Shown one piece after another: positions 21,701 to 51,934 of a DNA stretch of 64,000 nucleotides; within the stretch, counting starts at the first letter, position 1, and every line of letters starts with the position of its first letter. The notes below the pieces were generated by a model. The model ran no database searches. It was not told the origin of the DNA and saw nothing but the letters and a program-made list of their open reading frames with translations. A program made the position numbers and the translations under genes. This stretch comes from Candidatus Uhrbacteria bacterium (GTDB taxonomy: Bacteria; Patescibacteriota; Patescibacteriia; UBA9934; GWF2-40-263): positions 980 to 64,979 of the forward strand of contig JACRJU010000013.1 of NCBI GenBank assembly GCA_016219925.1. Reading direction: 5' to 3'.

Positions 21701-24700
21701 CGCAAGCGCAAACGTATCGCGCGGGTTTGGGAACATATGAACCGATCGTACCAACCAACATCTATGGGTGGAGCTGGGAGTGGGGATCCTCTGTCGCAGA
21801 CGATAAAACGAAACCAGAAGACATCGTTGATCTGACCTCACAGAAAAATCCGCCAGATCCAGGAATGGAAGGTCGATTGGCTGCCGTCGGCCATAATGGT
21901 TCTGAACATGTGCTCGCCAGCGCGGTCGTCAATAAAGATACGCTCAATAATCCCACCACGATTGGAACGGAAAAAGGCACCGTGGCCGGTACGCTTGAAG
22001 TCACCGCGCTCACCTGTGAAAATCCGTGGCCGGAACCGGATCCCCTTACTGGTTGGAAGCCTTATCTTGAAAAAACCGATCCGGCCAAGCCGTCTAACTT
22101 CGGTTTCTATTACTGTCGCGACCGAGGCGATCAAGGAACAGGGGATGACCTGCCTCCTTTGGATCCGCCGGTTGATGTGACTTCCATTGCGGTTGGCGGA
22201 CTTTTGCAAGAATTGTTCTTCAAGGTTCAAGGCACGCCAGATGCGATTGGGGTGCGCGTTTTCCAGAACCCGAATTATCTCTCGCCGGCCGCATGGTTTA
22301 AGTCGCAAAAGTTTACTGGAGCGTTTGGGCCGATTCAAATGGACGGTTATGAAGGCATTCAATCCGGCAATACCGCCTATGTGGCCGCGGCCAACGAGCA
22401 TGGGGTTGTTCTCTATCCGAATATTTACGTGATTTCTTACAATCCTAGCGCTGGAAGCGACGCCCGAGCGATTTTTGAAGAAATTTTGAAGAACTGGCGG
22501 TTCAATGCCAACACGAACGAAGTCAGCAATGTGAATCTGTGTCGGATTGGCAACAAATACATCAAGGACGACAGTGAAAATTATGTGGCTTGTTCTTGGG
22601 ATGGAGATTGTGTGGAGGCGCTGGTCGATGGGCAATGCACGGTTTCGCATCTCAAGGAAGAGGCTCTGGCTCTGTGTCCTTTGGCTCCTGAAAAGAAAGC
22701 CCTGTGTGATAGCGATAAGGCCAAGATTCAGCGCGACATGAAGCGCCTCACTGACATCACACAACAAGTCACAACCTTGGACGCCTATGGAGGCAAGAAT
22801 CGCCATTGTTCAGTAACGAAAACGCAATCATGCAGTGTAAACGAGCAGTGTCCGGGAACCGAGAAATGCGTTGCGGGATATCCCACCATTAAACAAGGCA
22901 CGTTCGTTCCTGCGATGAGCGTGAGCAAATGGGGGTCGTGGAACGCATCGTTCAGCAATGAGCTGGGCAGTGCCGTGCCTATTGATCCCCTCAATGTCTT
23001 TTGGCGATCCTGCTCGACCCTTGGTCCAAAGTACGATCCGGCAACCTGTTTTAACAGTATGGAAGGAAAATTTGTCTGTCCGAATCAATCTCATGTTTAT
23101 GCTTACCAAAACAAGGGTGGAGAAGCCTATACCTTGTTTACGCAACTTGAATTTATCGGGGCGCCATGGGTGTTTGATATTGATCCGTTTGAGAACGACG
23201 CCGCAACGATTGTCGCCGAGTACCCAGCCGGCGCAAACGTCCCGGGCCAGATGAAGAAGGGCTTTGCCCCGGCTCCAGTCTTTTGTTCGGATCAAAAAGT
23301 TTGGGGGACTTCCACCTCCTGCGGTGATGGAGTCGTTGGGGCTCAAGAGATCTGTGAGCCCGGACAGATACAGTCGGCTCCATGTACCGTGAGCGTAAAC
23401 GGTCAGCTAAAAAATGGGTTCATCAATGTAGGATGTCGTTCTGATGTGACGAAGCCAAAGGCCTGTCAAGAATATCAAACAGCGGACGAGGCCAAGATCG
23501 CGGGCGCGGTGTGTGTGCCCAACCAGTGCGGCAACGGTATTTTGGAAACAGGAGAACAGTGCGATGACGGAGCGCTCAACGGAACGTACGGACATTGTGG
23601 GAAGAGCTGTACTTTTGCGGGGTCTTTTGTGTGTGGGGATGGTTATTTAGCAGGAGGGGAACAGTGCGATTGCGGAACCCTTATCAATCACGCCGCTGTT
23701 GTAGCCGATCCCACGAGCTGGGCCGCGAAGAACAAAAATCAAAACCAAATCTGTTTCCAAGCGAACGGGCAATATAGTCCACTTCCAAATGGTTCCTGTT
23801 CATTTGATTGCAAAATCCCCGGACCATCCTGTGGAGATAAACTCGTAAACGGTGCCGAACAATGCGATGGCACAATGGAGACGTATGCAGGCAAACTTTG
23901 TCCAGACGGAAAAACCACCTGCGAAACAAATAACGATTGTCCTGGAAATGGAGTGTGCGGAGATCCTGGTCACATCGCGTGTCCTGCCAGTAGTCATGTG
24001 TGTGTTGGAGGAAACAAGGCCGGACAGAGCTGTACTCAAAATCAACAATGTGGAGCAGGAACCTGTTCAACCTTCAGCTACCCACTCACCCGCACGCGTC
24101 TTTGTACCAATGCCTGCACCTGGCCGGGATGGTCTGTTTGTTTGGGAGGAGATCAGATCTGCGGTAATGGGACAAAAGAAGGAACGGAAGAATGCGATGA
24201 CGGAAACCAAAACGATAACGATAGTTGTACCCACACGTGTAAGAAAAATATTTGTGGGGATAGTTATAAATTTGACGGGGTCGAAGCCTGCGACAATGGT
24301 GGGCAAAACGTGTTGCCTGACAGCCAAAACCCCTGTACGGCCCAGTATGGCGGCTCGTGCAATTACTGCAATACCCTGTGTCAATACAAGACCTTTTCTG
24401 GATCCTATTGCGGTGACGGGGTCATCAATGGAACCGAATTTTGCGATGGGAGCGCGATTCCGTATTCTTGTTTGAAAGTTTCCGGGTCGGATCGTTCGAG
24501 AGCAAAGAGCTGTCCGGCGACAGATGCCCTTGCCAAAGGGCCTTGCGATCAGGGCTTTACCTGCCAGCTGACGGGTGTGTGTAATGGCGGAACCCAAAAC
24601 GGTCAGCCTTGTACGCTCAAACCTCCAGCCAAAACAGTGGCCCAGTATACGGCTTCATCCAATCAGGCGGCGTGTGCAGGCGGGGGCGTCTGTGTGGCGC

Positions 24701-25911
24701 CGACTTGCACGAAAGACTGTACGGCGGCGTGTCCGTTTACGCTACAAACCACAAGTGTGCTTGTGCAAAGCGAACTGCCGGATGCTCAGCCACAGGAGAG
24801 CGTTGATCTCTACAGTTATTTCAACAAGGAAAAAAATTCTCCAGACAGCGCATCGCTTTTCTTGCCGGCGTGTAGCGTTGGAACACGCATCAGCGCGGAT
24901 GTTGATGACGCAAACGTCCATGAGCCTGATGTGGATGTGGTTTTCGTAACGGATCTTTCTGGAAGCATGATGGATGCGCCAAACGGCGGCGGGGCTGTGG
25001 TCCCAAACCGTCGCATCGACATTGTTGCGGAATCGACCGCAGAAGCCATTGATACGCTTTTTAATGCGTATGCGGGTTCTGAAGGGAAATTGCGCATTGG
25101 ACTTGTCAGTTTTGGGCAGAAGGATGATCCGGCAACACCGGTAAATGAGGAGATAACCGCGCAGTTAAATTCTGGGCTCCTTGAAAACTCGGGCGCAAAT
25201 AAACAACTTCTAAAATCCATCGCTCTTGGGTATCCAGCAAAAGTGGATGGGTGGACGCCAACTCCCGCTGGAATAAAAAAAGCCATTGAAGTTTTATCAA
25301 CCGAGCCCGACTCCCACGTAAAGGTCGTTGTTCTTCTTTCGGATGGAGATCCGACTTACGCTTTGGATCAAAAAAGTTGTGGCGATAAAAAGAACATCTC
25401 CGTTACGACAGAAGCCGGCCAGAAAACTCTTTCAGGAAGTCATTACTGTGTTGCTGAAGCTCGTTATGGTCCGCCAGGAGGTCCATCGATGATTAAAGGT
25501 CACTCAGAAATTTTCTTCTATTCCGCCGCGATTGCCACCTCAAATGATTTGCGAGCGCAAATGGAGCACATGTCAAGTATGGGATGTGCGGGGAATGATA
25601 TGTCTAGCATAGATGACTGCCAGGATGGCTTGTATGCTTTTGATGCAGACACCAAAGAAGAGATCAAACAGATGTACGATCAAATCATGACGTCTATCTT
25701 AAGTGCAACGACAACGATCACCGCTTCGAAGAATGGTTCGGTGAAATCCGCAACCGGACTCACTCCAGTGGGCAACAATGTGACCATTCCCGTTCCTGAT
25801 ACCTTCCAGTGCCAAAGTCAACCATTCACCATGCCGATGAAAACGAATTTCTATGGAACCGGCACGATGAAATTTAGCAACTTTAGCTTTACGTATTGTC
25901 CGTTGCCTTAG
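15739..25911 (+). CDS. giant (~3,390 aa) cell-surface adhesin-like protein. Pilin-like N-terminal module, multiple IPT/TIG-Ig domains, Myxococcus-type Cys-rich repeats, C-terminal von Willebrand factor A domain
   Basis: First ATG is at 15739 ([30 protein letters not shown]). The track TTG at 15694 lies inside the palindrome. Module: [65 protein letters not shown]-like: [44 protein letters not shown]. Cys repeats: [28 protein letters not shown] (x5-6). vWA MIDAS: [12 protein letters not shown] ... [12 protein letters not shown]. Confidence 0.85.
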
Positions 25912-33577: not shown

Positions 33578-34981
33578 ATGAGACGAACAAAAATCGTGTG
33601 CACGATTGGTCCTGCCAGTGCTTCACCGACAAAATTACACGCCTTGATGCGTGCTGGCATGGACGTTGCTCGATTGAATTTATCTCACGGCACACATCGA
33701 GACCATCACCGCATCCTGAAAACCATTCGCCAAACCGCGCGCGAGCTTGGCAAGCCAGTCGCCATCGTCGGAGATCTTCAAGGTCCAAAAATTCGTTTAG
33801 GCGAACTTCCTGCCGCTGGGGTTGCTTTGAAAGCCCACAGTTCCGTTGTCATCAATAGTGCCGCCACCACTTTTCAGAAAGGGGAGCTTCCGGTGACCTA
33901 TGCGAATTTGTTTAAAGATGTGAACGTAGGGGAGCGTTTGTTGATTGATGATGGTCTGCTTGAGCTCAAGATTACACGCGTTGCCAAAAAAAAAATTTAT
34001 GCAACGGTCGTGAACGGGGGAACGGTGACCTCGCATAAGGGCATGAACTTTCCCGACTCGCAACTTTCCCTCAGCTCGCTGACGAGCAAAGATCGGGAAG
34101 ATGTTGTGTTTGCCGTGGGACAAGGAGTGGATTGGGTGGCGTTGTCGTTTGTGAAATCTGTGGCGGATGTGAAGCTTTTGCGCCGGCTCATTGCGAAAGC
34201 AAGCAAACCTGGAATGATAAAACCTCTCATCATCGTGAAAATCGAAAAGCATGAGGCGGTCGCAAATTTTGATGCGATTTTGGAAGAGGCCGATGGGGTG
34301 ATGGTTGCGCGCGGTGACTTGGGCATCGAGGTGCCTGCCCAAGAAGTTCCCGTGATTCAAAAGACATTCGTGGAGAAATGTCGCAAAGCCGGCAAACCGG
34401 TTATCGTGGCAACCCAGATGCTTGATTCCATGATCCGCAATCCGCGTCCGACGCGTGCGGAAGTTTCCGATGTGGCCAATGCGGTTTTTGATCACACCGA
34501 TGCGGTGATGCTCTCCGGCGAGACGGCTTCGGGAAAGTATCCGGTGCAGGCGGTAAAAATGATGGCCTCCATTGTGCAGGAAGCCGAGCGCTCCGTATTT
34601 GATGACGTGACTTTTTTTGAGTCCTCAACAACTGATGCGGTTGCGGCACTATCCCAACAACTGAAACTCGCGGCCGTTCAGGGGTCCATCGAGGCGGTTG
34701 TGGCTTCTTTGGAATTGGCCTCTTGGGCACCGACGATTCATCGAGAGCATCCGGAGATCCCCTTGTTTCTCGCGTGCTCTTCACAAGAGGAGGCGCGGCA
34801 AAATGTTTTGCGATGGGGCGTCCAACCGTTAGTTCTCAAAAACGCTCGCGAGCAAACGTTTGCTCGACGAGCGTTCTCATGGCTCCTGAAGGAGCATCTG
34901 TTAAAGTCACACGCACACGTCGCTCTCGTGTTGGGCGGCAGACATGGCAAAGCGTTTGATGTCGTGGAGGCTAAGGGTTGA
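33578..34981 (+). CDS. pyk: pyruvate kinase
   Basis: MRRTKIVCTIGPAS...ARLNLSHGTH...MVARGDLGIEVP signature motifs. 467 aa. Confidence 0.92.
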   Translation: MRRTKIVCTIGPASASPTKLHALMRAGMDVARLNLSHGTHRDHHRILKTIRQTARELGKPVAIVGDLQGPKIRLGELPAAGVALKAHSSVVINSAATTFQKGELPVTYANLFKDVNVGERLLIDDGLLELKITRVAKKKIYATVVNGGTVTSHKGMNFPDSQLSLSSLTSKDREDVVFAVGQGVDWVALSFVKSVADVKLLRRLIAKASKPGMIKPLIIVKIEKHEAVANFDAILEEADGVMVARGDLGIEVPAQEVPVIQKTFVEKCRKAGKPVIVATQMLDSMIRNPRPTRAEVSDVANAVFDHTDAVMLSGETASGKYPVQAVKMMASIVQEAERSVFDDVTFFESSTTDAVAALSQQLKLAAVQGSIEAVVASLELASWAPTIHREHPEIPLFLACSSQEEARQNVLRWGVQPLVLKNAREQTFARRAFSWLLKEHLLKSHAHVALVLGGRHGKAFDVVEAKG

Positions 34982-35690
34982 GAAGTTTGGCAAAAAGACG
35001 CCTGGACGTAACCCTCTGGACGAGCGTCATGATTATTTCGTCAGATTTTGGGACGTGGACGACACGTTCGATAATAAACGTGTTTTTTTCGTCAGCGCTA
35101 TAGAGGCTGTTGTCCGATTTGATGAGACTCACATCGTTTAGGATGATGCTGTTTTGCCAGTCTTCAACTTCAGTAGCTTTTTTTAATTCAGCCGCGGTGT
35201 CGACGATCTGCCAGAAGGGTTTATCGGTTCGATAAGTTGTTTCTTCACTTGGCATAAGCCACGTTCGACAAGGTTGATCCAAGCAGGCCTGCACGGTCAT
35301 GGTGTATTTTGTGTCGGACTTCAGATCGGAAAGATCGAGACTTGTTCGATCATGTTCACCGGATTCTATGCGCGTCCATCTCGTGCGAGGGTCGGTGATT
35401 GTGATGAGGAAGTGGTGATACGTTTGAGTCGGGGGTTGCCAGGTGAGGCGGATGTAGGTTGAGGATCCATGCGTTTCCCCAGCGATGTCCGTTGGGTTAA
35501 ATGGGCCGCTTATGAGCTGGCCGTCCCAGATACTTGTGGCGTCGCGATAGAGCGCGGTATGGATTTTATCTGCGAGCAAGGCCGACTGTTTTTCCGCGGT
35601 GCGTTTTGCGTTGAGTACGACAACGGTTGTTGTTAAAGCTCCGGCCAGCAGGACCATGGTGGCGATCAAGATGAAGGTTTTGTAGGTCAT
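34971..35690 (-). CDS. membrane-anchored hypothetical protein with an FN3-like ectodomain
   Basis: ATG at 35688-35690 (MTYKTFILIATMVLLAGAL). The track ORF is extended upstream across the tRNA region. LTWQPPTQTYHHFLITITD...TKYTMTVQAC is fibronectin-III-like. Overlaps the pyk 3' end by 11 nt. Confidence 0.6.
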   Translation of the reverse strand: MTYKTFILIATMVLLAGALTTTVVVLNAKRTAEKQSALLADKIHTALYRDATSIWDGQLISGPFNPTDIAGETHGSSTYIRLTWQPPTQTYHHFLITITDPRTRWTRIESGEHDRTSLDLSDLKSDTKYTMTVQACLDQPCRTWLMPSEETTYRTDKPFWQIVDTAAELKKATEVEDWQNSIILNDVSLIKSDNSLYSADEKNTFIIERVVHVPKSDEIIMTLVQRVTSRRLFAKLLNP

Positions 35691-35864
35691 AGCACCCAAA
35701 TGGTAGCAAACCCTGGGATGGTTGCAAGTCAAAAAAGGGTATGTTAATATTCCGGCGTTCTCTGGATATGGCCGTACAGAAGAACGAGTGGTCATATCCT
35801 GTTCGTTCGCTCGGGAATGGATCAAACCCCGAAGGGGTTGACCCATTCCACTCATTTCACTCAC

Positions 35865-35942
35865 GGATCGGTGGTGTAGCCCGGTTAACACGTCTCCCTG
35901 TCACGGAGAAGATCGCGGGTTCGAATCCCGTCCGGTCCGCCA
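35865..35942 (+). tRNA. tRNA-Asp (anticodon GTC), with encoded CCA
   Basis: Manual cloverleaf. Acceptor GGATCGG/CCGGTCC with one G-U. D-stem GTGT/ACAC. Anticodon stem TCTCC/GGAGA with loop CTGTCAC. T-arm GCGGG-TTCGAAT-CCCGT. Confidence 0.85.
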
Positions 35943-35948
35943 GAAAGT

Positions 35949-35980
35949 CGCTTCTGCAGACGCAGAGGCGTTTTTCTTTT
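35949..35980 (+). terminator. rho-independent terminator after tRNA-Asp
   Basis: CGCTTCTGC-AGAC-GCAGAGGCG stem followed by TTTTTCTTTT. Confidence 0.55.
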
Positions 35981-36017
35981 TATCTTCGCCGAATTCTGGA
36001 GTTCCAACTGATTTTCA

Positions 36018-36707
36018 TTAAAGAAACCTCTTTAATTCATCTTTTACCTCTTTTGAATACGAAGAATAGTTTTTGAAGTAATCGATTTGTGAATAGAGAT
36101 ATTCTAAAGGATCGCCGCAATCAAGATAATGCCCATCTAGAATTATAGTTGCCAGAAGACCAGTGTCCTCCTTCATAATATTTATGATGTCTGTAAGCCA
36201 AAGTTCACCATGTAGTCCTGGGACTGTTTTATCAAGTGCATCGAATACAGATGGCAACAGAACATAAGCACCATGTGTAGCAAAAGATGACGGCTCTTCA
36301 CCGAACTTTGGTTTTTCGACAATGCGAACGATCTCCTTTACGTTTTCTTCTCCGTTTATATCCTTAAATTCTGCCATTCCGTACCTGCTACGTTTTGTAG
36401 GATCTTTAATTTCTATAGCAGAAATAACTGGTTTTTTATATTTTTCAAATGTCTCTAAGCATTGCTGAATTCGAGGTTTATATTTTGAGATGATAATTTC
36501 GTCAGACCAGACAAGAACGAACGGCTCATCGGAAACGAGATGTCTCGCTGCTTCAAGCGCTCCTCCATTTCCATACGGTGGTTTAGTGTACACAAAACTA
36601 AAATTCGCCATCTCTGTAATACGCTTCAACTCAGTAACCTGGTCTTTTTTTCCAAGCTTCAGAAAGTAATCCTCAAGAATTTCATTTGGGGAGAAAAAAC
36701 TTTCTGC
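36018..36707 (-). pseudogene. 5'-truncated UTP-glucose-1-phosphate uridylyltransferase-like (GalU-type sugar nucleotidyltransferase) gene remnant
   Basis: Open frame ...ILEDYFLKLGKKDQVTELKRITEMANFSFVYTKPPYGNGGALEAARHLVSDEPFVLVWSDEII...IVEKPKFGEEPSSFATHGAYVL matches the central and C-terminal GalU motifs. The N-terminal GxGTRxLPxTK nucleotide-binding segment is absent. The frame is closed by a TGA at 36708-36710. Confidence 0.6.
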
Positions 36708-37120
36708 TCAGGAACAAAATGATGGATATTATATTTTTGAGCAAGTTCCCCATTTTTTTCTTGAAATTTAGGATCTGATCCGTCAAGAAAATAAATATCT
36801 TTCTTAGGATAATCTAAAGAGAAAAGACAAATAAATGTTGCTTCAAGGACACCGAGCGGTTCATTGCGTGCTGGCACTAAAACCGTGACATCGGGCAAGT
36901 TTTTTGTATCAAGTTTTACGCGTCGATAACGATTTGCATTTGGCTTTCCTAGTCGAATAATGCTAGTCAAAAATCCAAATGACTGTAGAATTGCGTGTCC
37001 TTCAGCAAAAAGTAGTAACAACCCAAAAAATACGTTTAAGATGCCTATGCTTTGTGAAGCATAGGTGTAAACACGAAATCCAAAATAGACTATTAGACTT
37101 CCTAACGCTAAACTCGCCAA
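36659..37120 (-). pseudogene. 3'-truncated family-2 glycosyltransferase (cellulose-synthase-like) N-terminal fragment
   Basis: Two or three N-terminal TM helices, then VTVLVPARNEPLGVLEATFICLFSLDYPKKDIYFLDGSDPKF (GT2 start). It stops after 153 aa, before the DxD and QxxRW motifs. It is one frame away from the galU-like fragment at an A6 run (36694-36699). Confidence 0.55.
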
Positions 37121-37304
37121 GTGTGTGTGTGTTGTCTCACATTCAACAATTCTATTGTGAAATTATATCATAAACGTGCGTCATTGGCTTTAGGTTTAAG
37201 TGATTTTCCCGGGGTTGGCGACGCAACAAAACTTAAATCTAAACCACCTCGTTGGGCTTTTCTACTCTGAAATAGGTTCCGACCCCTTCCACAACGTCCC
37301 GCCA

Positions 37305-37337
37305 GAAAAACAACCTGATTTCATCAGGTTGTTTTTT
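37305..37337 (-). terminator. bidirectional rho-independent terminator, serving the minus-strand gene 37435-37866
   Basis: AAAAA-CAACCTGAT-TTC-ATCAGGTTG-TTTTTTT: a perfect 9-bp stem flanked by an A-run and a T-run. Confidence 0.6.
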
Positions 37338-37434
37338 TACCCACGAATGCAAGGACGGAGTTCGAACTCCAGAGAGTTCGGAGGGTCGTTCCCCAAACTT
37401 TTAGGACGGAGGGGGAACCGCAAGAACAAAAATT

Positions 37435-37866
37435 TTAAAAATTCGGTTTTGATCTCATTTCTTTTTGTCGCTGTTGTAAACGTGAGAAACGTTCTTGAGC
37501 TTCCTGAACATTTTTCGTATTCATAAATTCTTTTGGAACACCAAATGCATCACAAATTCTTTGCCCGAATTTTGGTCCTTTATCCATCGTCCAATTTTCT
37601 ATTCCCTGTTTTACAACTTCCTCTATATCTCTGTTTGGAACGCGAAATAAATCTCTTATTTTGATTGCGGTTTCAAAATTATCACTTGAACGAGAGTCAA
37701 GAAGATGTTGTGTAATCCCACCGATAGCGGCATCTCTGACCTCATTATTATCCAGAATTTCAGACGGAATTGGACCGTCTCCAAGAGTTTTTAGGACTTC
37801 TTCCAAAAAACCGAATCGTAAATCTTCAACGATATCGTTGACCAATTTTTGAGTTTGTGGGTTCAT
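37435..37866 (-). CDS. hypothetical protein (143 aa) in an AT-rich island
   Basis: Clean ORF with a downstream terminator. No recognisable domain. The region is about 38 % GC against a roughly 50 % flank. Confidence 0.5.
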   Translation of the reverse strand: MNPQTQKLVNDIVEDLRFGFLEEVLKTLGDGPIPSEILDNNEVRDAAIGGITQHLLDSRSSDNFETAIKIRDLFRVPNRDIEEVVKQGIENWTMDKGPKFGQRICDAFGVPKEFMNTKNVQEAQERFSRLQQRQKEMRSKPNF

Positions 37867-37890
37867 AAATTTACGTTCGCTCCTTATTTT

Positions 37891-38607
37891 TTACACAGGT
37901 ATCCCCACCGCCTTTTTTAGTTCGTTCACTTCGGAATCGGTGAGAGAGCGCCATTTGCCGGCAGGATAGGTGGAGGGCATTTTGAGCGTGAGAATGCGCG
38001 TGCGTTTGAGTGAGACCACGCGGTATCCGAGAGCTTCGCACATGCGGCGAATCTGACGGTTGCGTCCTTCGCGCAAGATAATCGCGAAGCGTTTGGTATC
38101 CATCTGCCGCACCTTGGCCGGAAGCGTCATGCCGTCCTTAAGCCCCATGCCGTTTTGCCACTGCTTGATATCTTTTGATAGAAGCGACCGATCTACTTCG
38201 ACCACATACTCTTTATCGTGCTCATAACGCGGGTGCATGAGTCGGTTTGAAAGGGTCCCATCGTTGGTCAACAAGAGAAGCCCTTCGCTTTGGACATCCA
38301 ATCGGCCAACGGGGAAAACTCGTTCTTCCAGATCGATCAGATCCATCACGTTGTCTTTTTTGTGCCGGTCCGAAGTGACGATCACCCCGACCGGCTTGTT
38401 GAGCAAGAGGTAAATTTTTTTGGGTTGGATCTTTTTGGCGCGGCCTTCCACGCGCACCGTATCGCTCTCGCTAACCTTGTCACCAAGCTTGGCGCGTTTG
38501 TCATTGATAAAAACCCGCCCGGACTCAATGAGTCGGTCGGCTTCTCGTCGTGAACAATAACCTTGTTCAGAGAGATACTTGTTGATGCGGACAGGAAGAT
38601 TTTTCAT
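37891..38607 (-). CDS. pseudouridine synthase, RsuA/RluB family (S4 plus catalytic domain)
   Basis: S4 RNA-binding N-terminus (RINKYLSEQGYCSRREADRLIESGRVFIN). Catalytic-Asp motif FPVGRLDVQSEGLLLLTNDG. Confidence 0.88.
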   Translation of the reverse strand: MKNLPVRINKYLSEQGYCSRREADRLIESGRVFINDKRAKLGDKVSESDTVRVEGRAKKIQPKKIYLLLNKPVGVIVTSDRHKKDNVMDLIDLEERVFPVGRLDVQSEGLLLLTNDGTLSNRLMHPRYEHDKEYVVEVDRSLLSKDIKQWQNGMGLKDGMTLPAKVRQMDTKRFAIILREGRNRQIRRMCEALGYRVVSLKRTRILTLKMPSTYPAGKWRSLTDSEVNELKKAVGIPV

Positions 38608-38823
38608 AAGTCACTTTTAGAATATCCAAAACCGGCTATCCGCACAAGAATCAGAAAAGAAAAAGAGACGGCCGACTGGAGAACCAGTGCGACCGTCTTG
38701 AAGCCGTAGAAGCCAACTACGGCGAGGGGAGGCGGCAAGGGCTTTCCCATTCCAGCCACCATCCTCCAGGAACGGAGCCTCCACCGGTGCCCGCTGGCAA
38801 AGCGGACTTTTTGCCCGATGGAG

Positions 38824-39723
38824 TTACTGAGGATTTGAGCCACCCCCTGTGCTGGCCGCGGGCGCGGGCGTTGTGACCGTTGTGTTGCCGGCTGTGCAGT
38901 TGTTGCTACAGGTCGGGTTCACGACAGCCGCGTTGCTGATGCCACCCGCGGGGATCGCGGAGGCACTGCTCGCAGCCGCGCCTGCCGGAATCGGCGAGGC
39001 GTTGCCCGTGTGGAAAGTCCCGATTCCCGTCGTGACCATCCACCACAGGCCGAACAGGAGGGCCAGTAGGATGATGATCGGCGCGGCGAAGGCGAGCGCC
39101 GAGAGGCCGCGGTCGGCCCAAGTGCGCCAGCGCGGCGGAGCCGGAGGGGCCGGTGGGGCAACCGGGCCGCCAGGTGCAGGCGGGGCACCGGGAGCCGGTC
39201 CCAGCACGATGTGCATCGGGATCGGCGGCGGCGGTGCGATGTGCACCGGCACGGGCACAACCGCCACGGCTGGGGCACCAAGCGCCGGAGGGGCCGGAGG
39301 CGCAGGCGGTGCTCCGGGTGCGATGGGCGGGGGCGCGACCGGCGGGAGAGCCGGAGGCGCAGGGGGTGCGCCAGGAACGGGCGGAGGCGCAGGCAGCGGC
39401 GGCGGTGCGGCCGCGAGAGCGACCACGTCCACGTCCTGCCCAGCCACCTCGGTCAGTAGGTCCGTTGTGCGGACCACGCCGAGATGGTAGTGGCCGGGCG
39501 CCTGGAAGCCCCGCGTGCTCCTGAAGGTCAGGTTCGAGGGGTGTCCGGCACCCACCGCACCGACGCGCGCGGTGTCGCGATCAATGACGATCGGGGCACC
39601 GGCCGGCGTGACGAGGAGCCGAAACTCCGCGCCTGGGGGGTTGTCCGGAGGAGTGACCTCCAACCGGACGGCGAGAGCCGAGCCCTCGACGATGTTGGGG
39701 GGCGCGTGAAGCGTAAACGCCAT
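38824..39723 (-). CDS. GC-rich Pro/Ala-rich membrane protein (N-terminal globular domain, PAPP-repeat linker, C-proximal TM)
   Basis: ATG at 39721-39723 with a perfect AGGAGG SD upstream. About 70 % GC. Long (PAPPx)n tract. TM LSALAFAAPIIILLALLFGLWWMV. Long antisense ORFs here are GC artefacts. Confidence 0.6.
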   Translation of the reverse strand: MAFTLHAPPNIVEGSALAVRLEVTPPDNPPGAEFRLLVTPAGAPIVIDRDTARVGAVGAGHPSNLTFRSTRGFQAPGHYHLGVVRTTDLLTEVAGQDVDVVALAAAPPPLPAPPPVPGAPPAPPALPPVAPPPIAPGAPPAPPAPPALGAPAVAVVPVPVHIAPPPPIPMHIVLGPAPGAPPAPGGPVAPPAPPAPPRWRTWADRGLSALAFAAPIIILLALLFGLWWMVTTGIGTFHTGNASPIPAGAAASSASAIPAGGISNAAVVNPTCSNNCTAGNTTVTTPAPAASTGGGSNPQ

Positions 39724-39867
39724 GGTTTCCTCCTGAATGGGTTTTTGTGACTCCTTACCAACGTGATAAAGAGCGTCCGAAACCGTTTCGGAACCCGAAA
39801 AAATAACACAAAAAAACGATTTTGTCAATCGTTTATACAAAAAACCCGCGATTTTCGCGGGTTTTTT

Positions 39868-40212
39868 CTAACGGATTTTCTCAACGACTTTTTTGAAAAC
39901 TTCTGGGTGATCCTTGGCAAGTGTTGAGAGGATCTTGCGATCAAGTGCGACATTGGCCTTCTTAAGTCCATCAATAAATCGGCTGTAGTTCATCTCAAGC
40001 GGACGAAGCGCGGCGTTCAATCGGATCTGCCAGAGGCGGCGCATGGTGCGTTTTTTGTTGCGGCGATCGCGGTAGGCATAAACGCCGGCTTTTAAAGCCG
40101 CTGGGCGAGCGACGCGGATTTTCGACTTGCGCCCCCACATCATGCCTTTGGTTTTTTCCAGCAAGCTTTTGCGTCGCTTGACGTGTTGGGTTCCTCGTTT
40201 AACTCGTGGCAT
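39868..40212 (-). CDS. rplT: 50S ribosomal protein L20
   Basis: MPRVKRGTQHVKRRKSLLEKTKGMMWGRKSKIRVARPAALKAGVYAYRDRRNKKR... Confidence 0.92.
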   Translation of the reverse strand: MPRVKRGTQHVKRRKSLLEKTKGMMWGRKSKIRVARPAALKAGVYAYRDRRNKKRTMRRLWQIRLNAALRPLEMNYSRFIDGLKKANVALDRKILSTLAKDHPEVFKKVVEKIR

Positions 40213-40220
40213 AAGTTTTT

Positions 40221-40409
40221 TTATTCCCCCATCAATGTCTTAACCGCTTTGCTGTACGACGCAAATGTTTTATCGCGGCGCTTCTTGCGGGTGATTTTTC
40301 CGGGATCGCGGCTATTGAAGTGATCCTGTCCGGCGGCTCGCTTGAGCACCTTGCCGGTTTTGGTGATGGTGAACCGTTTGGAAACGGCTTTATGGGTTTT
40401 CAATTTCAT
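40221..40409 (-). CDS. rpmI: 50S ribosomal protein L35
   Basis: MKLKTHKAVSKRFTITKTGKVLKRAAGQDHFNSRDPGKITRKKRR. Internal ATG at 40407-40409 chosen. Canonical infC-rpmI-rplT order. Confidence 0.8.
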   Translation of the reverse strand: MKLKTHKAVSKRFTITKTGKVLKRAAGQDHFNSRDPGKITRKKRRDKTFASYSKAVKTLMGE

Positions 40410-40465
40410 AGCGGATATTTTCAAAGACGTGCGAAGTATAGGGAAGTGACGCGTCCCTGTCAAGA

Positions 40466-41017
40466 TTAGCTCTTGGCAATAATGGTTGAGAAGCGGCCGC
40501 CCAGATATTTGATTTCTTGCTCAACGCGCAGTTGATAGTCGGCGCGCAGACCTTCGACAAAGGTATTGATCACTTCTTCGGCCACATCCTTGTGGGCTTT
40601 TTCGCGGCCACGCATAGGGAGTTCAATCTTGACCTTGTCGCCACGATCTAAAAATTTAGCCGCTTGTTTTTGTCTGACCCCGGCATCATGCGCACCAATA
40701 CGCACCGAAAGCCGAATCGCTTTTATTTCAACTTCTTTTGCCTGCGCTTTTTGTTTGCGCGCTTCTTTTTCTTTTTGGTATTTGAATTGTCCGTAGTCCA
40801 AAATTTTGCAAACAGGCGGTTCGGCCTTGGGGGAAACTTCAACCAAGTCAAGCTCTTTGCTTTGAGCAAGCTCGATGGCCTTGGTGGTTGGCATCACCCC
40901 AAGGGCCTGTCCGTTTTCATCAATGACACGAACCTGCTCGGCACGAATGCGCTCATTGGCCCAGTATTTTTGGACGTTGAGCGATGAGTGGTGCAGGCGA
41001 TGACGGTGAATACGCAT
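40466..41017 (-). CDS. infC: translation initiation factor IF-3
   Basis: NERIRAEQVRVIDENGQALGVM...LDLVEVSPKAEPPVCKILDYGQFKYQ... The exact start is uncertain because infC often uses a non-canonical start. The ATG at 41015-41017 gives a His-rich N-terminus. Confidence 0.85.
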   Translation of the reverse strand: MRIHRHRLHHSSLNVQKYWANERIRAEQVRVIDENGQALGVMPTTKAIELAQSKELDLVEVSPKAEPPVCKILDYGQFKYQKEKEARKQKAQAKEVEIKAIRLSVRIGAHDAGVRQKQAAKFLDRGDKVKIELPMRGREKAHKDVAEEVINTFVEGLRADYQLRVEQEIKYLGGRFSTIIAKS

Positions 41018-41082
41018 AGAGATGGAAAAAGTTTATGGGAAAGAGTGGAAAAAATCAAGTAATGAGGTAGAGTAGGGAGGAA

Positions 41083-41529
41083 ATGAAACAGGTCGCTTAT
41101 AATAAACGGGCCGGGTTTGACTTTGAACTTCTGGATAAACAGGAAGCGGGTTTGGTGTTAACCGGACCGGAAGTTAAAGCGGTTAAGGCCGGCCTGGTGC
41201 AATTTAAGGGAGCGTTTTTGGATATTCGGAAAGGGGAGTTGTGGCTCAAGAATGCGCATATCACTCCGTATGGTCCGGCCGCATCAGCCCAGCAGGGATA
41301 TGAACCAACGCGCGACCGTAAAGTGCTGGTTCATAAGCGGGAACTCAAGCGTTTGATTGGCAAGAAGCAAGCTGAAGGATTGACGCTGGTGCCCGTGAGT
41401 TTGTATATCAAGAACAATTTGGTGAAGCTTGAGTTTGCTGTGGCTCGTGGCAAAAAAAAATATGAGAAGCGCGAGGCGATCAAGAAGCGGGATGTGCAAA
41501 AGCAGATTCGTGAACGTTTGCGTGAATGA
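41083..41529 (+). CDS. smpB: SsrA-binding protein SmpB
   Basis: MKQVAYNKRAGFDFELLDKQEAGLVLTGPEVKAVKAG...KNAHITPY...VLVHKRE. Confidence 0.9.
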   Translation: MKQVAYNKRAGFDFELLDKQEAGLVLTGPEVKAVKAGLVQFKGAFLDIRKGELWLKNAHITPYGPAASAQQGYEPTRDRKVLVHKRELKRLIGKKQAEGLTLVPVSLYIKNNLVKLEFAVARGKKKYEKREAIKKRDVQKQIRERLRE

Positions 41530-41617
41530 TTTTTTCTCTCCTTTTCTTTCTCTTCTAAATCAAGCGAACAGGACAATGCCTGGTCGTTCTTATAACCTTT
41601 CTCTTTAACGTACAAAC

Positions 41618-41700
41618 GTCTTTTTGCGGTTTATGCCATGTCGGAGGGAACAGCGGCGAGGAGTCCGCTGGCCCGGAGACATGGCATAAACCGCAAGACA
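41618..41700. repeat. long perfect stem-loop, possibly an island-boundary element
   Basis: An 18-bp perfect inverted repeat: TGCGGTTTATGCCATGTC with GACATGGCATAAACCGCA. An inner CAGCGG/CCGCTG hairpin sits inside. It lies between smpB and the GC-rich gene. Confidence 0.6.
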
Positions 41701-48594: not shown

Positions 48595-48850
48595 GACAGA
48601 TTGGTTTCTCTCTGCACCTACGGCTTTACTTCTCTTAAGGAGATCCTTCGTCGGCCTCTGGCCTCCTCAGGATGACAAATAAAATGTTGTGTCATCCTGA
48701 AGGAGCTTGAATCGACTGAAGGATCTTACAGAATGTAAAACCGCGAGTGCAGAGAGACAACCATCCCTCCGGGGTGGCTCTGTGGCATACAGCTGAGACG
48801 GGATTTCCCCCGCTTCGGTATCGTGTGTCAGATATCCCCCGGAGGGGGAG
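48595..48850 (+). promoter_or_regulatory. structured 5' leader / repeat element R1 with an SD-sequestering stem
   Basis: Long-range inverted repeat TCTCTCTGCAC (48607-48617) with GTGCAGAGAGA (48747-48757). Nested hairpins AGATCCTTC/GAAGGATCT and CTCAGGATGACA/TGTCATCCTGAAG. CCCTCCGGGG (48765-48774) pairs with CCCCGGAGGG (48837-48846), which contains the SD GGAGGGGG 6 nt before ATG 48854. The 105-nt core 48746-48850 is repeated at 52086-52190 with one mismatch. Confidence 0.65.
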
Positions 48851-48853
48851 ACA

Positions 48854-50341
48854 ATGGAGGAAGCCATGAAGACGTTGTGCCAGTTCGTTTTCGCCGTGAG
48901 TCTGCTCGTCGGCGCCACCGCCGCGTTCGCGGCCCCCCCCAAGCCCACGGCCGACTGCGGCCTGGACAAGGACGGCGACGGTTGGTGCGTGCCGGATCCG
49001 AGCCGCACCATGCCCGACCCGGCCGACCCCAGCAAGAGCAAGCCGTTTCATCTCGGCAAGCTCGACTGCAACGACGCCGACCCGGCCGTTCACCCCGGCG
49101 CCAAGGAAATCGTCGGCAACGGGATCGACGAGGACTGTGACGGTGAAGACGCCGAAGCCCCGGCCTACGCGAAGAACTTCGGGTGCGACCCGAAGAACGC
49201 GAAGTGTTTGGCGGTCTTGGCCAAGGAGATCAAGGCGTGCGACGGCAAGACCGGCTGTGCCGTGAACTACACGGCCGGCAAGTTCGTCACCGGCTTCGGC
49301 TTCTACTTCATCGACACCGACTGCGACGGCGTGCGCGAGCTTGTCAATCAGGCCGGGAAGGACAAGCACGACGCCGAGATCGCGGCCGGGAAGCACTGCG
49401 TGCGACCCGCCGGGACGACGCATCGCCCGCACCACAAGGGGAAGGCCAAGCCGAAGTACGCCGTCGCTCCTCTCCCCGTCGATCCCACCCGGGTCGACGC
49501 GCTCGAGAAGGGAGCCGGCGAGCTCCGAGATGACGTCGACGGTCTCGATGACCGGCTCGACGACGTCGAAGAGCTCGCGGCCGACGGGGCCAAGCGCCTC
49601 GATGACCTCAACGGAGCCCTCAAGGCCGAAGCCAAGGCCCGTGAGGCCGCGGACAAGGCAGAGGCCGAGGCCCGCAAGGCCGCCGACAGCGCTCTGGGCG
49701 ACCAGATCGCGATCGTCAAGGGCCAGGCCGCGACGGCTCACCGGGTCGCCGTGGCCGCGGGCACCCGCGCCGAAGACGCCGCCTCCGCCGCCGCCGTCGC
49801 CAACAGCGCCGGCGTCAACGCGGGGTTCAACGTCGGCGTGGCTCTCAAGGGCCAGGCCGACATCCACCTGAAAAGTGGAGTGGCGCGGGGAGGCTTCGCT
49901 CCCATGCTCCTCGTCGGCGGTCACGTCGGCGCGGAGCTCCCGTCCGGGATCTACCGCCTCCTCGGCGCCGTCGGCCTCCCCTTCGAGGAAGGTCCAAGCG
50001 GCAACACCGAGCGCGGGATGTTCTGGACGGTCGGTGGCGAGACGCTCTTCAAGCTCGCCCCCGGCTCCGCGCACGCGCTCGGGCTCATCGTCCGGTACGT
50101 CGACCACGAAAGTGGTGGTGACGTCCTGGGCGTCAACGCTCGGTCGCGCGGCGGCGGAGGCGGCGTCGCGTACGAGTACGCGTCCGGCTCGGGATGGTTG
50201 CGCACCCCAGTGCACGTCAGCCTCGAAGGGGGCGGCGAGCAGTTGGGCTCCCAGGGCAGTCAGTTTCGTGCCCTGGGCAACGCCGCCTTCGCCATGCTGA
50301 CCCTCACGGTCGGTGGCGGAACCGGTGCGCTCACCCGCTAG
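48854..50341 (+). CDS. GC-rich secreted protein. Signal peptide, MopE-like Cys/Asp metal-binding-type repeat, coiled-coil, Gly-rich C-terminal domain
   Basis: Signal peptide MEEAMKTLCQFVFAVSLLVGATAAFAAP. CNDADPAVHPGAKEIVGNGIDEDCDG motif. About 68 % GC. The long antisense ORF 48692-50215 is treated as a GC artefact. Confidence 0.7.
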   Translation: MEEAMKTLCQFVFAVSLLVGATAAFAAPPKPTADCGLDKDGDGWCVPDPSRTMPDPADPSKSKPFHLGKLDCNDADPAVHPGAKEIVGNGIDEDCDGEDAEAPAYAKNFGCDPKNAKCLAVLAKEIKACDGKTGCAVNYTAGKFVTGFGFYFIDTDCDGVRELVNQAGKDKHDAEIAAGKHCVRPAGTTHRPHHKGKAKPKYAVAPLPVDPTRVDALEKGAGELRDDVDGLDDRLDDVEELAADGAKRLDDLNGALKAEAKAREAADKAEAEARKAADSALGDQIAIVKGQAATAHRVAVAAGTRAEDAASAAAVANSAGVNAGFNVGVALKGQADIHLKSGVARGGFAPMLLVGGHVGAELPSGIYRLLGAVGLPFEEGPSGNTERGMFWTVGGETLFKLAPGSAHALGLIVRYVDHESGGDVLGVNARSRGGGGGVAYEYASGSGWLRTPVHVSLEGGGEQLGSQGSQFRALGNAAFAMLTLTVGGGTGALTR

Positions 50342-50869
50342 GCCTCTGCGCGGCGCGGCTCGCCTCCTCCCGAGTGCGCGCCGTCATCACGCCGGTTGTC
50401 CCCCGACCGGCACTGGGTGACCCCGCCTCCCGCGCAGTTCGACTTCGGTCGGCTGTGCGGGGGCGGGGAAACCTGGACCTCTCATCAGCTTTTGCTGATC
50501 CTGGCTCCACACACCTACTCGTGTGGAGACCTCGTACGAGAAGTTGAGTCATTTATTGCCCGAGCTTGTCGAGGGCTGTAGATGGATCATTCGACTTCTG
50601 ATATGAGGAGAACGAACATCTTTGCCATACTGTCCTGTCATCCTGAGCGAAGCGAAGGATCTCGCGTTTCTAGAGATTCTTCAGTCACTGCTGATGGAGT
50701 TATATCGACCGAAGGATCCCAAGGTGTAAAGCTGGGGAAAGCAGGATGATTGATCGCCACCCGCTGGTGTTCAGCCATCCTGTTTTCCCCGGACCCTGAC
50801 CCATGGTGGGTTCGGGGGCGGATTGGACAGAGAGAAGTCCACGGGGAGGCCCGTGGCAGGAGGAGATCC

Positions 50870-51757: not shown

Positions 51758-51877
51758 GTCACAACGATCCCTTCTGCCCACTGCGTCTTCCAACCGGTGG
51801 GCGCTTTTTTTTGTCAGACATTTGTGACTTTTAGTCAAAAATTGCCGTTTTTATTACAAAATACGCGTTTGGATGGC

Positions 51878-51906: not shown

Positions 51907-51934
51907 AATCTGTTCCCAAAATGAGGGAATGGAT

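What the first reader, a model, noticed from the sequence alone, without database searches (positions are those of the whole stretch)
35990..37880. AT-rich island next to tRNA-Asp carrying two gene remnants joined at an A6 homopolymer
Directly downstream of tRNA-Asp (35865-35942) and its terminator, the GC content drops to about 35-40 % for ~1.9 kb.

The region holds three things.
- A GalU-type nucleotidyltransferase lacking its N-terminal nucleotide-binding segment (36018-36707, minus strand).
- The first 153 aa (TM helices plus the start of the GT2 domain) of a cellulose-synthase-like glycosyltransferase (36659-37120, minus strand).
- A 143-aa hypothetical (37435-37866).

The two fragments lie in adjacent frames and meet at an A6/T6 run (36694-36699). 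Adding one base would fuse them into a single ORF, GT2-N joined to GalU-C. Either way neither enzyme is complete.

This looks like a tRNA-targeted island that has undergone a deletion, or a phase-variable or decaying polysaccharide locus.
Basis: seen in the sequence. Interest (0 to 1): 0.55.

Follow-up and report, generated by a model that had tools for sequence, protein, structure and literature searches.

The report
Deleted sugar-polymer operon remnant beside tRNA-Asp
A 1.9-kb AT-rich patch next to a tRNA gene in a Candidatus Uhrbacteria genome holds the leftover ends of a four-gene sugar-polymer operon that lost its 1.7-kb middle, plus one intact small gene; this is ordinary gene decay in acquired DNA, not a switch or a new system.

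Summary
tRNA-Asp with its terminator, the GC drop, both gene fragments, the 143-aa ORF and the A6/T6 run are all there.

The two fragments are the outer ends of a conserved cassette of candidate-phyla (CPR/Patescibacteria) bacteria. The cassette order is cellulose-synthase-like GT2 (512-513 aa), small protein sA (76-85 aa), small protein sB (62 aa), GalU-like nucleotidyltransferase (about 298 aa). In the window, GT2 residue about 150 abuts GalU residue about 66 at base 36704. That implies one internal deletion of about 1.73 kb, and the missing parts occur nowhere else in the 64 kb.

The T6 run was not created by the junction. It is the ancestral codons of the conserved GalU motif ESFF(S), with runs of T5 to T8 in intact relatives. 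One extra T, or a -1 ribosomal slip, would give a 368-aa chimera lacking the catalytic motifs of both enzymes, so phase variation is not supported.

The remnant keeps all 24 invariant GalU positions it covers and has no internal stops, so the deletion looks recent.

GC3 is 25-31% against 51-62% in flanking genes, and relatives sit in 31-42% GC genomes. This points to horizontal acquisition. Integrase-mediated targeting of the tRNA is unproven: there is no integrase, only a 10-nt repeat.

Interest is low.

The parts
35865..35942 (+). tRNA-Asp (anticodon GTC), with the CCA end encoded
   Evidence: ARAGORN; Rfam RF00005, 64.8 bits.
35949..35980 (+). GC-rich hairpin plus T-run: intrinsic terminator of the tRNA
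   Evidence: Terminator scan: 9-bp stem with 6 GC pairs, followed by TTTTTCTTTT.
35937..35946 (+). Copy 1 of the 10-nt direct repeat CCGCCAGAAA. It covers the last 6 nt of the tRNA plus 4 nt downstream.
   Evidence: blastn-short exact 10-mer match. A match of 10 nt or more occurred in 1.1% of 5000 block shuffles.
36018..36704 (-). 3' remnant of a GalU-like sugar-1-phosphate nucleotidyltransferase gene, equivalent to residues ~66-290 plus the stop codon. It has no native start and lacks the N-terminal GxGTRxLPxTK nucleotide-binding loop.
   Evidence: TIGR01099 positions 62-259 of 261. 73% identical to L004 GalU aa 66-290 and 81% to P0002. All 24 invariant family columns it covers are retained.
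36694..36699 (-). T6 run (A6 on the + strand). It is the native galU codons AGT TTT TTC of the conserved ESFF(S) motif, 1-2 nt 3' of the deletion junction.
   Evidence: Intact homologues carry T5 to T8 at the same codons. In L045/L046 the same run has lost one T and splits galU.
36700..36709 (-). Deletion junction, GAGCAGAAAG on the coding strand. GT2-derived DNA (…CCT GAG CAG AAA) meets galU-derived DNA (GAA AGT TTT…). A shared GAAA is a possible microhomology.
   Evidence: The GT2 tblastn match ends at 36704 and the GalU match starts at 36704. Codon-level comparison with L002, L004 and L040. The microhomology is inferred because the parent sequence is unknown.
36704..37129 (-). 5' remnant of a cellulose-synthase-like family-2 glycosyltransferase gene, equivalent to residues ~9-150 of 512-513. 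It holds two hydrophobic helices, VLVPARNEP and the first Asp box FLDGSD. The DxD, TED and QxxRW motifs are deleted.
   Evidence: 63% identical to L004 GT2 aa 9-150 and 52% to L002. TIGR03030 positions 71-190 of 714.
36659..36703 (-). Out-of-frame tail of the 153-aa ORF (…KVFSPQMKFLRITF, then stop). This is galU DNA read in the GT2 frame.
   Evidence: Translations.
37121..37132 (.). (GT)6 dinucleotide run directly 5' of the only available start codon (TTG at 37120) of the GT2 remnant. The ATG start and first ~8-13 residues seen in homologues are missing.
   Evidence: Read directly from the sequence. N-termini of the L002 and L004 GT2 proteins.
37162..37170 (-). TGATATAAT, an extended -10-like element upstream of the GT2 remnant. 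Putative promoter.
   Evidence: Read directly from the sequence. The hexamer-pair scan did not report it. Inferred only.
37299..37308 (+). Copy 2 of the 10-nt direct repeat CCGCCAGAAA, inside the intermediate-GC spacer.
37306..37336 (.). Perfect 14-bp inverted repeat with a 3-nt loop, flanked by A- and T-runs. Bidirectional terminator-like hairpin. On the minus strand it follows ORF143.
   Evidence: the repeat finder pair I10, 100% complementary. Present in the folds of both strands.
37435..37866 (-). Intact 143-aa all-helical repeat protein of unknown function, with an AAGGAG ribosome-binding site at 37880-37885. It starts 24 nt after the stop of the RluB-like gene (37891).
   Evidence: Full-length homologues P0103 (142 aa, 51%) and P0110 (145 aa). 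The same unit occurs 4-8 times in proteins of 800-1900 aa. AlphaFold2 pLDDT 90.4, nine helices. No significant PDB fold match. GC3 25%.

Best explanation
The AT-rich stretch 35990-37880 is a small piece of horizontally acquired DNA from a low-GC CPR/Patescibacteria donor. It lies between tRNA-Asp and the RluB-like gene of a ~53% GC Candidatus Uhrbacteria genome.

**What the left module is.** It is a dead remnant of a conserved four-gene cassette. The cassette order is cellulose-synthase-like GT2, sA, sB, GalU-like nucleotidyltransferase. In intact form it presumably makes a nucleotide-sugar (most likely UDP-glucose) and polymerises and exports it as a surface glucan.

**What happened to it.** A single internal deletion of ~1.73 kb joined GT2 codon ~150 to galU codon ~66, out of frame, probably across a few bases of microhomology (GAAA). 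It removed 72% of GT2, both small genes and the nucleotide-binding N-terminus of GalU.

**Consequence.** Neither enzyme can work. The 153-aa and 203-aa ORFs are annotation artefacts of the remnant.

**The T6 run.** It is inherited galU coding sequence that happens to sit 1-2 nt from the junction.

**The right module.** ORF143 is an intact, separately terminated small helical-repeat gene.

**Shown:** homology, cassette conservation, junction position, absence of the missing parts from the window, composition, and lack of decay in the remnant.

**Inferred:** the direction and mechanism of acquisition, the microhomology, the cassette's product, and the non-expression of the fragments.
For: **The cassette and the deletion**
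1. The cassette GT2(512-513 aa)-sA-sB-GalU(~298 aa) is complete in L002/L003, L004/L005, L040 and L045/L046. It is partly visible, up to the contig ends, in L006, L007, L039, L042 and L043.
2. The window matches L004 GT2 aa 9-150 (63%, E 1e-51) at 37129-36704 and L004 GalU aa 66-290 (73%, E 3e-112) at 36704-36030. The two matches share base 36704.
3. The equivalent interval is 1731 nt in L004 and 1725 nt in L002 (coordinates).
4. No trace of GT2 aa 151-513, sA, sB or GalU aa 1-65 exists anywhere in the 64-kb window at E<=10.

**The homopolymer**
5. Intact homologues have T5 to T8 at the ESFF(S) codons, in frame. The window's T6 is in frame with the GalU remnant.

**Age of the deletion**
6. The remnant keeps 24 of 24 invariant and 65 of 66 >=90%-conserved GalU columns. 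Intact homologues show 0-3 mismatches for most, up to 7. There are no internal stops in either fragment. The deletion is therefore recent.

**Foreign origin**
7. Island GC is 38% against a window mean of 53%. It is the only stretch below 44% GC.
8. GC3 is 25-31% in the three island ORFs against 51-62% in five flanking genes.
9. Related cassette loci have 31-42% GC.
10. Named relatives are Falkowbacteria, Dojkabacteria, Magasanikbacteria and Patescibacteria. The only Uhrbacteria entry is this gene itself.

**Not an assembly artefact**
11. A second assembly (Logan, SRR12113407) gives the identical sequence across the junction and the right boundary.
Against: - The best GalU relative is 81% identical in protein and 76% in DNA. 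The exact breakpoint and the microhomology are therefore inferred.
- No closely related Uhrbacteria genome was found that shows the site empty or with an intact cassette. Acquisition is argued from composition and from the names attached to relatives only.
- The perfect conservation of the GalU remnant could also mean it is still under selection, for example expressed from the internal TTG or ATG.
- Even intact relatives score below NCBIfam's equivalog cut-offs: galU 227-232 bits against 326.8, and CelA 196-201 against 699. The sugar specificity of the cassette is not established.
- The two assemblies may derive from the same reads.
Confidence: 0.85

Rival explanations
1. The DNA arrived as an integrase-mediated island targeted to the 3' end of tRNA-Asp, possibly by two successive insertions. 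The repeat CCGCCAGAAA would be the att core. The hairpin at 37306-37336 would be the tRNA's original terminator, now displaced. This concerns only how the DNA arrived and is compatible with the deletion scenario.
For: - The island starts within 40-75 nt of the tRNA 3' end.
- The 10-nt exact direct repeat includes the tRNA's last 6 nt, and each copy is followed by a terminator hairpin. A match of this length occurs in only 1.1% of block shuffles.
- The spacer carrying the distal repeat has intermediate GC of 46-48%.
- The Logan contig breaks inside the tRNA.
Against: - There is no integrase, recombinase or transposase in or next to the island.
- The repeat is short.
- The repeat does not bracket ORF143, which is equally AT-rich.
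- In the three related loci that contain a tRNA gene, the cassette is never directly adjacent to it. The nearest tRNA is 1.1-5.5 kb away with other genes in between.
- No relatives were found on viral contigs.
Confidence: 0.25
2. The T6 run is a functional switch, acting by slipped-strand phase variation, transcriptional slippage or a -1 ribosomal frameshift. It would turn on a membrane-anchored GT2-N::GalU-C fusion protein.
For: - One extra T, or a -1 slip of tRNA-Phe on TTT, fuses the frames into a 368-aa ORF.
- Both parents belong to the same broad nucleotide-diphospho-sugar transferase fold class (established knowledge).
- The same T-run carries a 1-nt deletion that splits galU in L045/L046, so the run is mutable.
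- The GalU remnant shows no decay.
Against: - The fusion lacks GalU's GxGTRxLPxTK loop and the DxD, TED and QxxRW motifs of GT2.
- The junction is explained by a deletion within a known cassette.
- The T-run is ancestral.
- T6 is short for efficient slippage, and it is not a canonical X XXY YYZ heptamer in the GT2 frame (reading).
- No other locus shows this architecture.
- Two assemblies both read T6.
Confidence: 0.03
3. The junction, or the whole island, is an assembly artefact: a collapsed or chimeric join.
For: The source is a metagenome-assembled genome. The Logan contig ends inside the tRNA, so the link between the tRNA and the left flank rests on one assembly.
Against: - Two assembly pipelines give identical sequence across 36704 and across the ORF143/RluB boundary.
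- A de Bruijn assembler cannot join across 4 nt of similarity (inference from how these assemblers work).
- Genes of 50% GC lie on both sides in one contig.
Confidence: 0.03
4. The locus is native and vertically inherited in this Uhrbacteria lineage. Its low GC reflects local mutational bias or relaxed selection, not transfer.
For: No empty-site genome was found. CPR genomes are poorly sampled.
Against: - GC3 is 25-31% against 51-62% in flanking genes, while the remnant shows no decay at conserved positions. AT enrichment by decay is therefore excluded.
- All close relatives lie in 31-42% GC contigs.
- L009, the nearest genome found, keeps SmpB-IF3-L20-X-RluB synteny but has an unrelated gene after RluB.
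Confidence: 0.07

Closest known systems
GalU / UTP-glucose-1-phosphate uridylyltransferase (TIGR01099; Pfam PF00483 NTP_transferase)
   Same: It is the best-scoring family for the 36018-36704 remnant (E 1.5e-35). Full-length relatives align end to end with the model, positions 1-259 of 261.
   Different: The window copy lacks the first ~65 residues, including the GxGTRxLPxTK nucleotide-binding loop. Even intact relatives score 227-232 bits, below the 326.8-bit equivalog cut-off, so UDP-glucose specificity is not shown.
BcsA/CelA-type processive family-2 glycosyltransferase (TIGR03030; PF03552, PF13632)
   Same: The N-terminal transmembrane pair and the start of the GT-A domain match CelA model positions 71-190. 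Intact cassette GT2 proteins carry DxD (FDADQ), TED and QQ[FY]RW motifs and hit Cellulose_synt.
   Different: Only ~28% of the protein is left in the window. Intact relatives are ~512 aa, match CelA only to model position 565 of 714 (so no match to the model's C-terminal part), and score 196-201 bits against a cut-off of 699. No bcsB partner was seen in the loci examined. A BcsG-like gene is present in L004.
tRNA-associated genomic islets and islands
   Same: The DNA lies directly downstream of a tRNA gene, has strongly deviant composition and carries accessory surface-polysaccharide cargo. There is a short repeat of the tRNA 3' end.
   Different: It is only 1.9 kb, has no integrase or mobility gene, and the repeat is 10 nt and does not bracket the whole AT-rich region.
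Homopolymer contingency loci (phase-variable surface-polysaccharide genes, for example in Neisseria, Haemophilus and Campylobacter)
   Same: A homopolymer lies within a polysaccharide gene, where a 1-nt change alters the reading frame. An independent 1-nt loss in the same run occurs in L045/L046.
   Different: The run is only 6 nt. Restoring the frame here gives no functional enzyme. The frame break is caused by a 1.7-kb deletion, not by tract length.

Membership tests
GalU (UTP-glucose-1-phosphate uridylyltransferase, TIGR01099) | Whole-protein score at or above the curated equivalog cut-off (326.8 bits) | tested here: not met
   123 bits for the window fragment. Intact relatives reach 227-232 bits.
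GalU (UTP-glucose-1-phosphate uridylyltransferase, TIGR01099) | N-terminal nucleotide-binding loop GxGTRxLPxTK | tested here: not met
   Present in relatives as AGGWGTRFLPSTK. Absent from the window in every frame: tblastn found no match to GalU aa 1-65.
GalU (UTP-glucose-1-phosphate uridylyltransferase, TIGR01099) | Conserved C-terminal two-thirds of the fold (model positions 62-259) | tested here: met
   Aligned over model positions 62-259 of 261. 24 of 24 invariant family columns are retained.
BcsA/CelA-type processive GT2 | D, DxD, TED and QxxRW catalytic motifs | tested here: not met
   Only the first Asp box (FLDGSD) remains. FDADQ, TED and QQFRW of the L002 and L004 GT2 proteins fall inside the deleted part.
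BcsA/CelA-type processive GT2 | Whole-protein score at or above the curated cut-off (699 bits) | tested here: not met
   46 bits for the fragment. 196-201 bits for intact relatives.
tRNA-targeted integrative island | Adjacent to the 3' end of a tRNA gene, with deviant base composition | tested here: met
tRNA-targeted integrative island | Integrase or recombinase gene at one end | tested here: not met
   The island contains only the three ORFs. None hits a recombinase family. The flanking genes encode an fn3 protein and RluB.
tRNA-targeted integrative island | Direct repeat of the tRNA 3' end bounding the insert | tested here: inconclusive
   There is a 10-nt exact repeat at 35937-35946 and 37299-37308, P about 0.011. 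It leaves AT-rich ORF143 outside.
tRNA-targeted integrative island | Empty site in related genomes | tested here: inconclusive
   Only one distant relative was found (L009, RluB 56% identical). It has neither tRNA-Asp nor the island after RluB. Exact-protein look-ups returned only the same sequence.
Phase-variable (contingency) locus | Change in tract length switches a functional product on and off | tested here: not met
   The +1 T product is a chimera lacking both catalytic cores.
Phase-variable (contingency) locus | Tract-length heterogeneity within the population | not testable with these tools
   No reads are available. Two assemblies both read T6.

The most novel reading that the evidence does not exclude
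The GT2-sA-sB-GalU cassette may be an undescribed, mobile surface-glucan module of CPR/Patescibacteria that is repeatedly switched off or lost. Its two tiny helical partners have no known function (sB is faintly rubrerythrin-like). The conserved T-run in galU's ESFF codons would be a recurrent inactivation point: a 1-nt loss in L045/L046, and a deletion endpoint 1-2 nt away in this window. That would amount to on/off variation of a surface polymer in episymbiotic bacteria, with the window being one 'off' state.
Probability: 0.1. Interest if true: 0.5.

Novelty: new member of a known kind. Interest (0 to 1): 0.15.

Why it matters
Mostly for annotation. HZA85_02630 and HZA85_02635 are deposited as 'hypothetical proteins' but are two halves of a deletion pseudogene, and they should not be counted as GalU or GT2 capacity when reconstructing this organism's metabolism.

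It also gives a clean, datable example of gain followed by rapid loss of accessory surface-polysaccharide genes in a reduced CPR genome.

As a by-product, it points to a conserved four-gene cassette in Patescibacteria whose two small proteins are uncharacterised. None of this changes current understanding.

Tried and rejected
1. **A GalU N-terminus in another frame or elsewhere.** tblastn of the full cassette proteins against all 64 kb at E<=10 found nothing.
2. **Word-based homologue search with the GT2 fragment.** It returned only the fragment's own record. Homology was established instead through the neighbours of the GalU relatives.
3. **Comparing the tRNA-Asp flank in related genomes.**
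   - The GTDB scan with RluB gave one Patescibacteria locus at 56% identity (L009). It shares synteny on the ribosomal-protein side, but an unrelated gene follows RluB and there is no tRNA-Asp.
   - Exact look-ups of RluB, ORF143 and L20 returned only L001, which is identical to the window.
   - Pyruvate kinase was not on record.
4. **A structured RNA or tRNA remnant in the 37121-37434 spacer.** There were no Rfam hits at E<=1 and no extra tRNA. Fold z-scores were -0.9 on the minus strand and -2.7 on the plus strand, driven by the terminator hairpin. No similar sequence occurs elsewhere in the window or in the loci.
5. **Terminal inverted repeats bounding a mobile element.** The pair at 35995-36009 and 37359-37373 (15 nt, 93% complementary) is chance level, E about 1.5-4 within the window.
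6. **Phage origin.** No relatives of GalU-C or ORF143 were found in IMG/VR. PHROG hits were weak.
7. **Function of ORF143.** There are no Pfam, NCBIfam or PHROG families and no PDB sequence hit. The AF2 model is confident, but the best PDB fold matches have E>0.2 and TM<0.5 to generic helical repeats. The afdb50 library was unavailable.
8. **Literature on a CPR cellulose-synthase/GalU cassette.** Nothing relevant was found.
Full report
**Source.** The window comes from a Candidatus Uhrbacteria metagenome-assembled genome. The contig is 281,942 bp and the relevant locus tags are HZA85_02630, 02635 and 02640.

**1. Observation.**
- tRNA-Asp(GTC) lies at 35865-35942, followed by a hairpin plus T-run terminator at 35949-35980.
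- GC then drops. In 120-nt windows it is 27-45% from about 35990 to 37200, 46-48% in a non-coding spacer at 37200-37440, and 34-42% across 37440-37880. It returns to 48-58% inside the RluB-like gene.
- In 1-kb windows this is the only part of the 64 kb below 44% GC (mean 53.1%, sd 5.9%).
- Third-position GC is 31%, 27% and 25% for the three island ORFs. It is 51-62% for five flanking genes.
- The minus-strand frame 36018-36707 matches galU (TIGR01099) over model positions 62-259 of 261, and PF00483 over positions 68-236.
- The ORF 36659-37120 matches the cellulose synthase catalytic subunit model TIGR03030 over positions 71-190 of 714.
- The A6/T6 run is at 36694-36699. Adding one T fuses the frames into a 368-aa ORF.
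- A Logan assembly of run SRR12113407 contains a 5,729-bp contig identical to window 35917-41645, including the T6 run and both ORFs.

**2. What the two fragments are.**
- The GalU-like fragment has about 100 relatives. Nearly all are ~290-307 aa, from Patescibacteria, and up to 81% identical.
- I fetched the DNA around the closest ones. In L002/L003, L004/L005, L040 and L045/L046 the gene is the last member of a conserved four-gene cassette. The order is a 512-513-aa family-2 glycosyltransferase with cellulose-synthase Pfam hits, a 76-85-aa protein (sA), a 62-aa protein (sB), then the GalU-like gene.
- Shorter contigs (L006, L007, L039, L042, L043) show the same order as far as they reach. 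One locus, L041, has GalU followed by GT2.
- The window's 153-aa ORF is 63% identical to residues 9-150 of the L004 GT2 and 52% to the L002 GT2. So the two fragments are the two outer ends of this cassette.
- Against the whole window, the GT2 match runs 37129-36704 and the GalU match runs 36704-36030 (GalU residues 66-290). They abut at one base.
- Nothing resembling GT2 residues 151-513, sA, sB or GalU residues 1-65 exists anywhere in the 64 kb.
- The interval between the equivalent points is 1731 nt in L004 and 1725 nt in L002. One ~1.7-kb internal deletion explains the structure.

**3. The homopolymer.** At codon level the junction reads CCT GAG CAG AAA | GTT TTT TCT in the GT2 frame and TGA GCA GAA AGT TTT TTC TCC CCA in the GalU frame.
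- Intact relatives read …ATT GAA AGT/AGC TTT TTT TCG/TCT… for the conserved motif I-E-S-F-F-S, with T-runs of 5 to 8.
- The T6 run is therefore inherited galU sequence and is in frame with the GalU remnant. The frame clash arises because the deletion joined GT2 to galU out of register, 1-2 nt upstream of the run.
- GT2 relatives read P-E-K-P or P-K-S-K here. A shared GAAA could have served as microhomology, but the parent sequence is unknown, so this is inference.
- A +1 insertion, or a -1 slip of tRNA-Phe on TTT, would give GT2(1-150)::GalU(66-end).
- That protein would lack the GalU loop AGGWGTRFLPSTK. It would also lack the GT2 motifs FDADQ, TED and QQFRW. A functional switch is therefore very unlikely.

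**4. Age and state of the remnant.** I aligned the GalU remnant with 80 full-length relatives.
- It keeps all 24 invariant positions it covers and 65 of 66 positions conserved at >=90%. Intact proteins in a leave-one-out control mostly show 0-3 mismatches.
- Neither fragment has an internal stop. The deletion is therefore recent relative to the divergence among relatives, or the DNA arrived already deleted.
- The GT2 remnant also lacks the ATG start and first 8-13 residues seen in homologues. Its only start codon is a TTG at 37120, directly after a (GT)6 run.

**5. Origin of the DNA.**
- Related cassette loci have 31-42% GC, matching the island's 38% and not the host's 53%.
- Named relatives are Falkowbacteria, Dojkabacteria, Magasanikbacteria and 'Patescibacteria group'. 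The only Uhrbacteria entry is this gene itself.
- Low GC combined with no decay at conserved positions excludes AT enrichment by pseudogene erosion. Acquisition from a low-GC CPR donor is the best reading.

How it was inserted is open.
- There is no integrase, recombinase or transposase.
- A 10-nt exact direct repeat, CCGCCAGAAA, covers the last 6 nt of the tRNA plus 4 nt downstream (35937-35946) and recurs at 37299-37308. Each copy is followed by a terminator hairpin. A match that long occurred in 1.1% of 5000 block shuffles.
- This fits an att-like duplication bounding the cassette module. However, ORF143 beyond it is equally AT-rich, and the repeat is short.
- In related loci the cassette sits in varied contexts and is never directly next to a tRNA.
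- The nearest genome I could find (L009, RluB 56% identical) keeps SmpB-IF3-L20-X-RluB synteny, but an unrelated gene follows RluB and there is no tRNA-Asp.
- I rate integrase-type targeting of the tRNA at about 0.25.

**6. ORF143 (37435-37866, minus strand).** This looks like a real, intact gene.
- It has an AAGGAG site at 37880-37885 and its own terminator hairpin at 37306-37336.
- It has full-length homologues of 142-145 aa, up to 51% identical.
- Its ~40-residue unit (…TAIxIRDxFxVP…KQG…) recurs 4-8 times in proteins of 800-1900 aa.
- AlphaFold2 gives a confident all-helical model (pLDDT 90.4, pTM 0.81).
- PDB fold matches are insignificant and generic, of TPR or designed-repeat type, with E>0.2 and TM<0.5. 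No family library recognises it.
- Best guess, by inference only: a helical-repeat scaffold or binding protein, carried in on the same or a neighbouring piece of foreign DNA.

**7. Comparison with known systems.**
- The intact cassette works like a minimal substrate-supply plus synthase pair, as galU feeds bcsA in cellulose producers (established knowledge).
- Membership in the curated families is not met, even by the intact relatives: galU 227-232 bits against 326.8, and CelA 196-201 against 699. The intact GT2 matches the CelA model only up to position 565 of 714, so the model's C-terminal part is unmatched.
- For the window copy the defining catalytic motifs of both families were tested and are absent.
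- The literature searches found nothing on this cassette in CPR bacteria.

**8.
- In L045/L046 the whole cassette is intact except that galU is split into 77-aa and 206-aa ORFs. The cause is loss of one T in the same run (GAA AGT TTT TCT CTC… instead of …TTT TTC TCT…).
- The run is thus a recurrent weak point in this gene family. This is the basis of the 'novel case', but it is equally consistent with ordinary pseudogenisation of a dispensable accessory cassette.

**9. Verdict.**
- This is a recently truncated remnant of a horizontally acquired polysaccharide cassette. It is a new instance of a well-known kind of event.
- Its practical value is correcting two 'hypothetical protein' annotations.
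- Interest 0.15.

Noticed in passing
L045 5720-6621 and L046 5720-6621 (related loci, ENA ERZ28564339 and ERZ27254732): The GT2-sA-sB cassette is intact, but galU is split into 77-aa and 206-aa ORFs by loss of one T in the same ESFF T-run (T5 instead of T6).
   Followed up: partly
L004 3754-4177; L002 6565-7003; also L040, L007, L039, L042, L045: Two tiny genes, sA (76-85 aa) and sB (62 aa), lie between GT2 and galU in every locus that shows the GT2-to-GalU gene order. sA has no family hit. sB has only a weak match to the Rubrerythrin C-terminus (E 0.006, below cut-off). Function unknown.
   Followed up: partly
window 37435-37866 (-): The ~40-aa helical unit of ORF143 recurs 4-8 times in giant proteins of 800-1900 aa from public metagenomes. 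This is an uncharacterised repeat family. The AF2 model is confident and has no PDB fold match.
   Followed up: partly
window 37121-37132: A (GT)6 dinucleotide run lies directly 5' of the only start codon (TTG at 37120) of the GT2 remnant. The ATG N-terminus seen in homologues is missing, so the 5' end of the remnant may also be damaged.
   Followed up: no
window 48700-57500: A GC-rich block (63-71% against a 53% mean) contains at least four tandem genes whose products carry repeated PF11617 'Cu-binding_MopE' putative metal-binding motifs. This is a compositional anomaly in the opposite direction to the island.
   Followed up: partly
window 38824-39840 (-): A proline/alanine-rich low-complexity ORF (338 aa, called as 299 aa in the Logan contig) has local GC up to 76% and no Pfam hit. 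It lies between the RluB-like gene and L20. L009 has a 483-aa ORF at the same position.
   Followed up: no
window 15694-25911 (+): A single 3405-aa ORF. Not examined.
   Followed up: no
window 35917 (start of Logan contig L001): The independent Logan contig breaks inside the T-arm of tRNA-Asp. Possible causes are k-mers shared with other tRNA-Asp genes in the community, or strain heterogeneity at this site. The link between the tRNA and the left flank therefore rests on one assembly.
   Followed up: no
window 34971-35780 (-): The gene upstream of tRNA-Asp encodes a membrane-anchored protein with a fibronectin type III domain (PF00041, E 5.6e-9). The mechanically listed 306-aa ORF overruns the tRNA, so the true start must lie further downstream.
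   Followed up: partly
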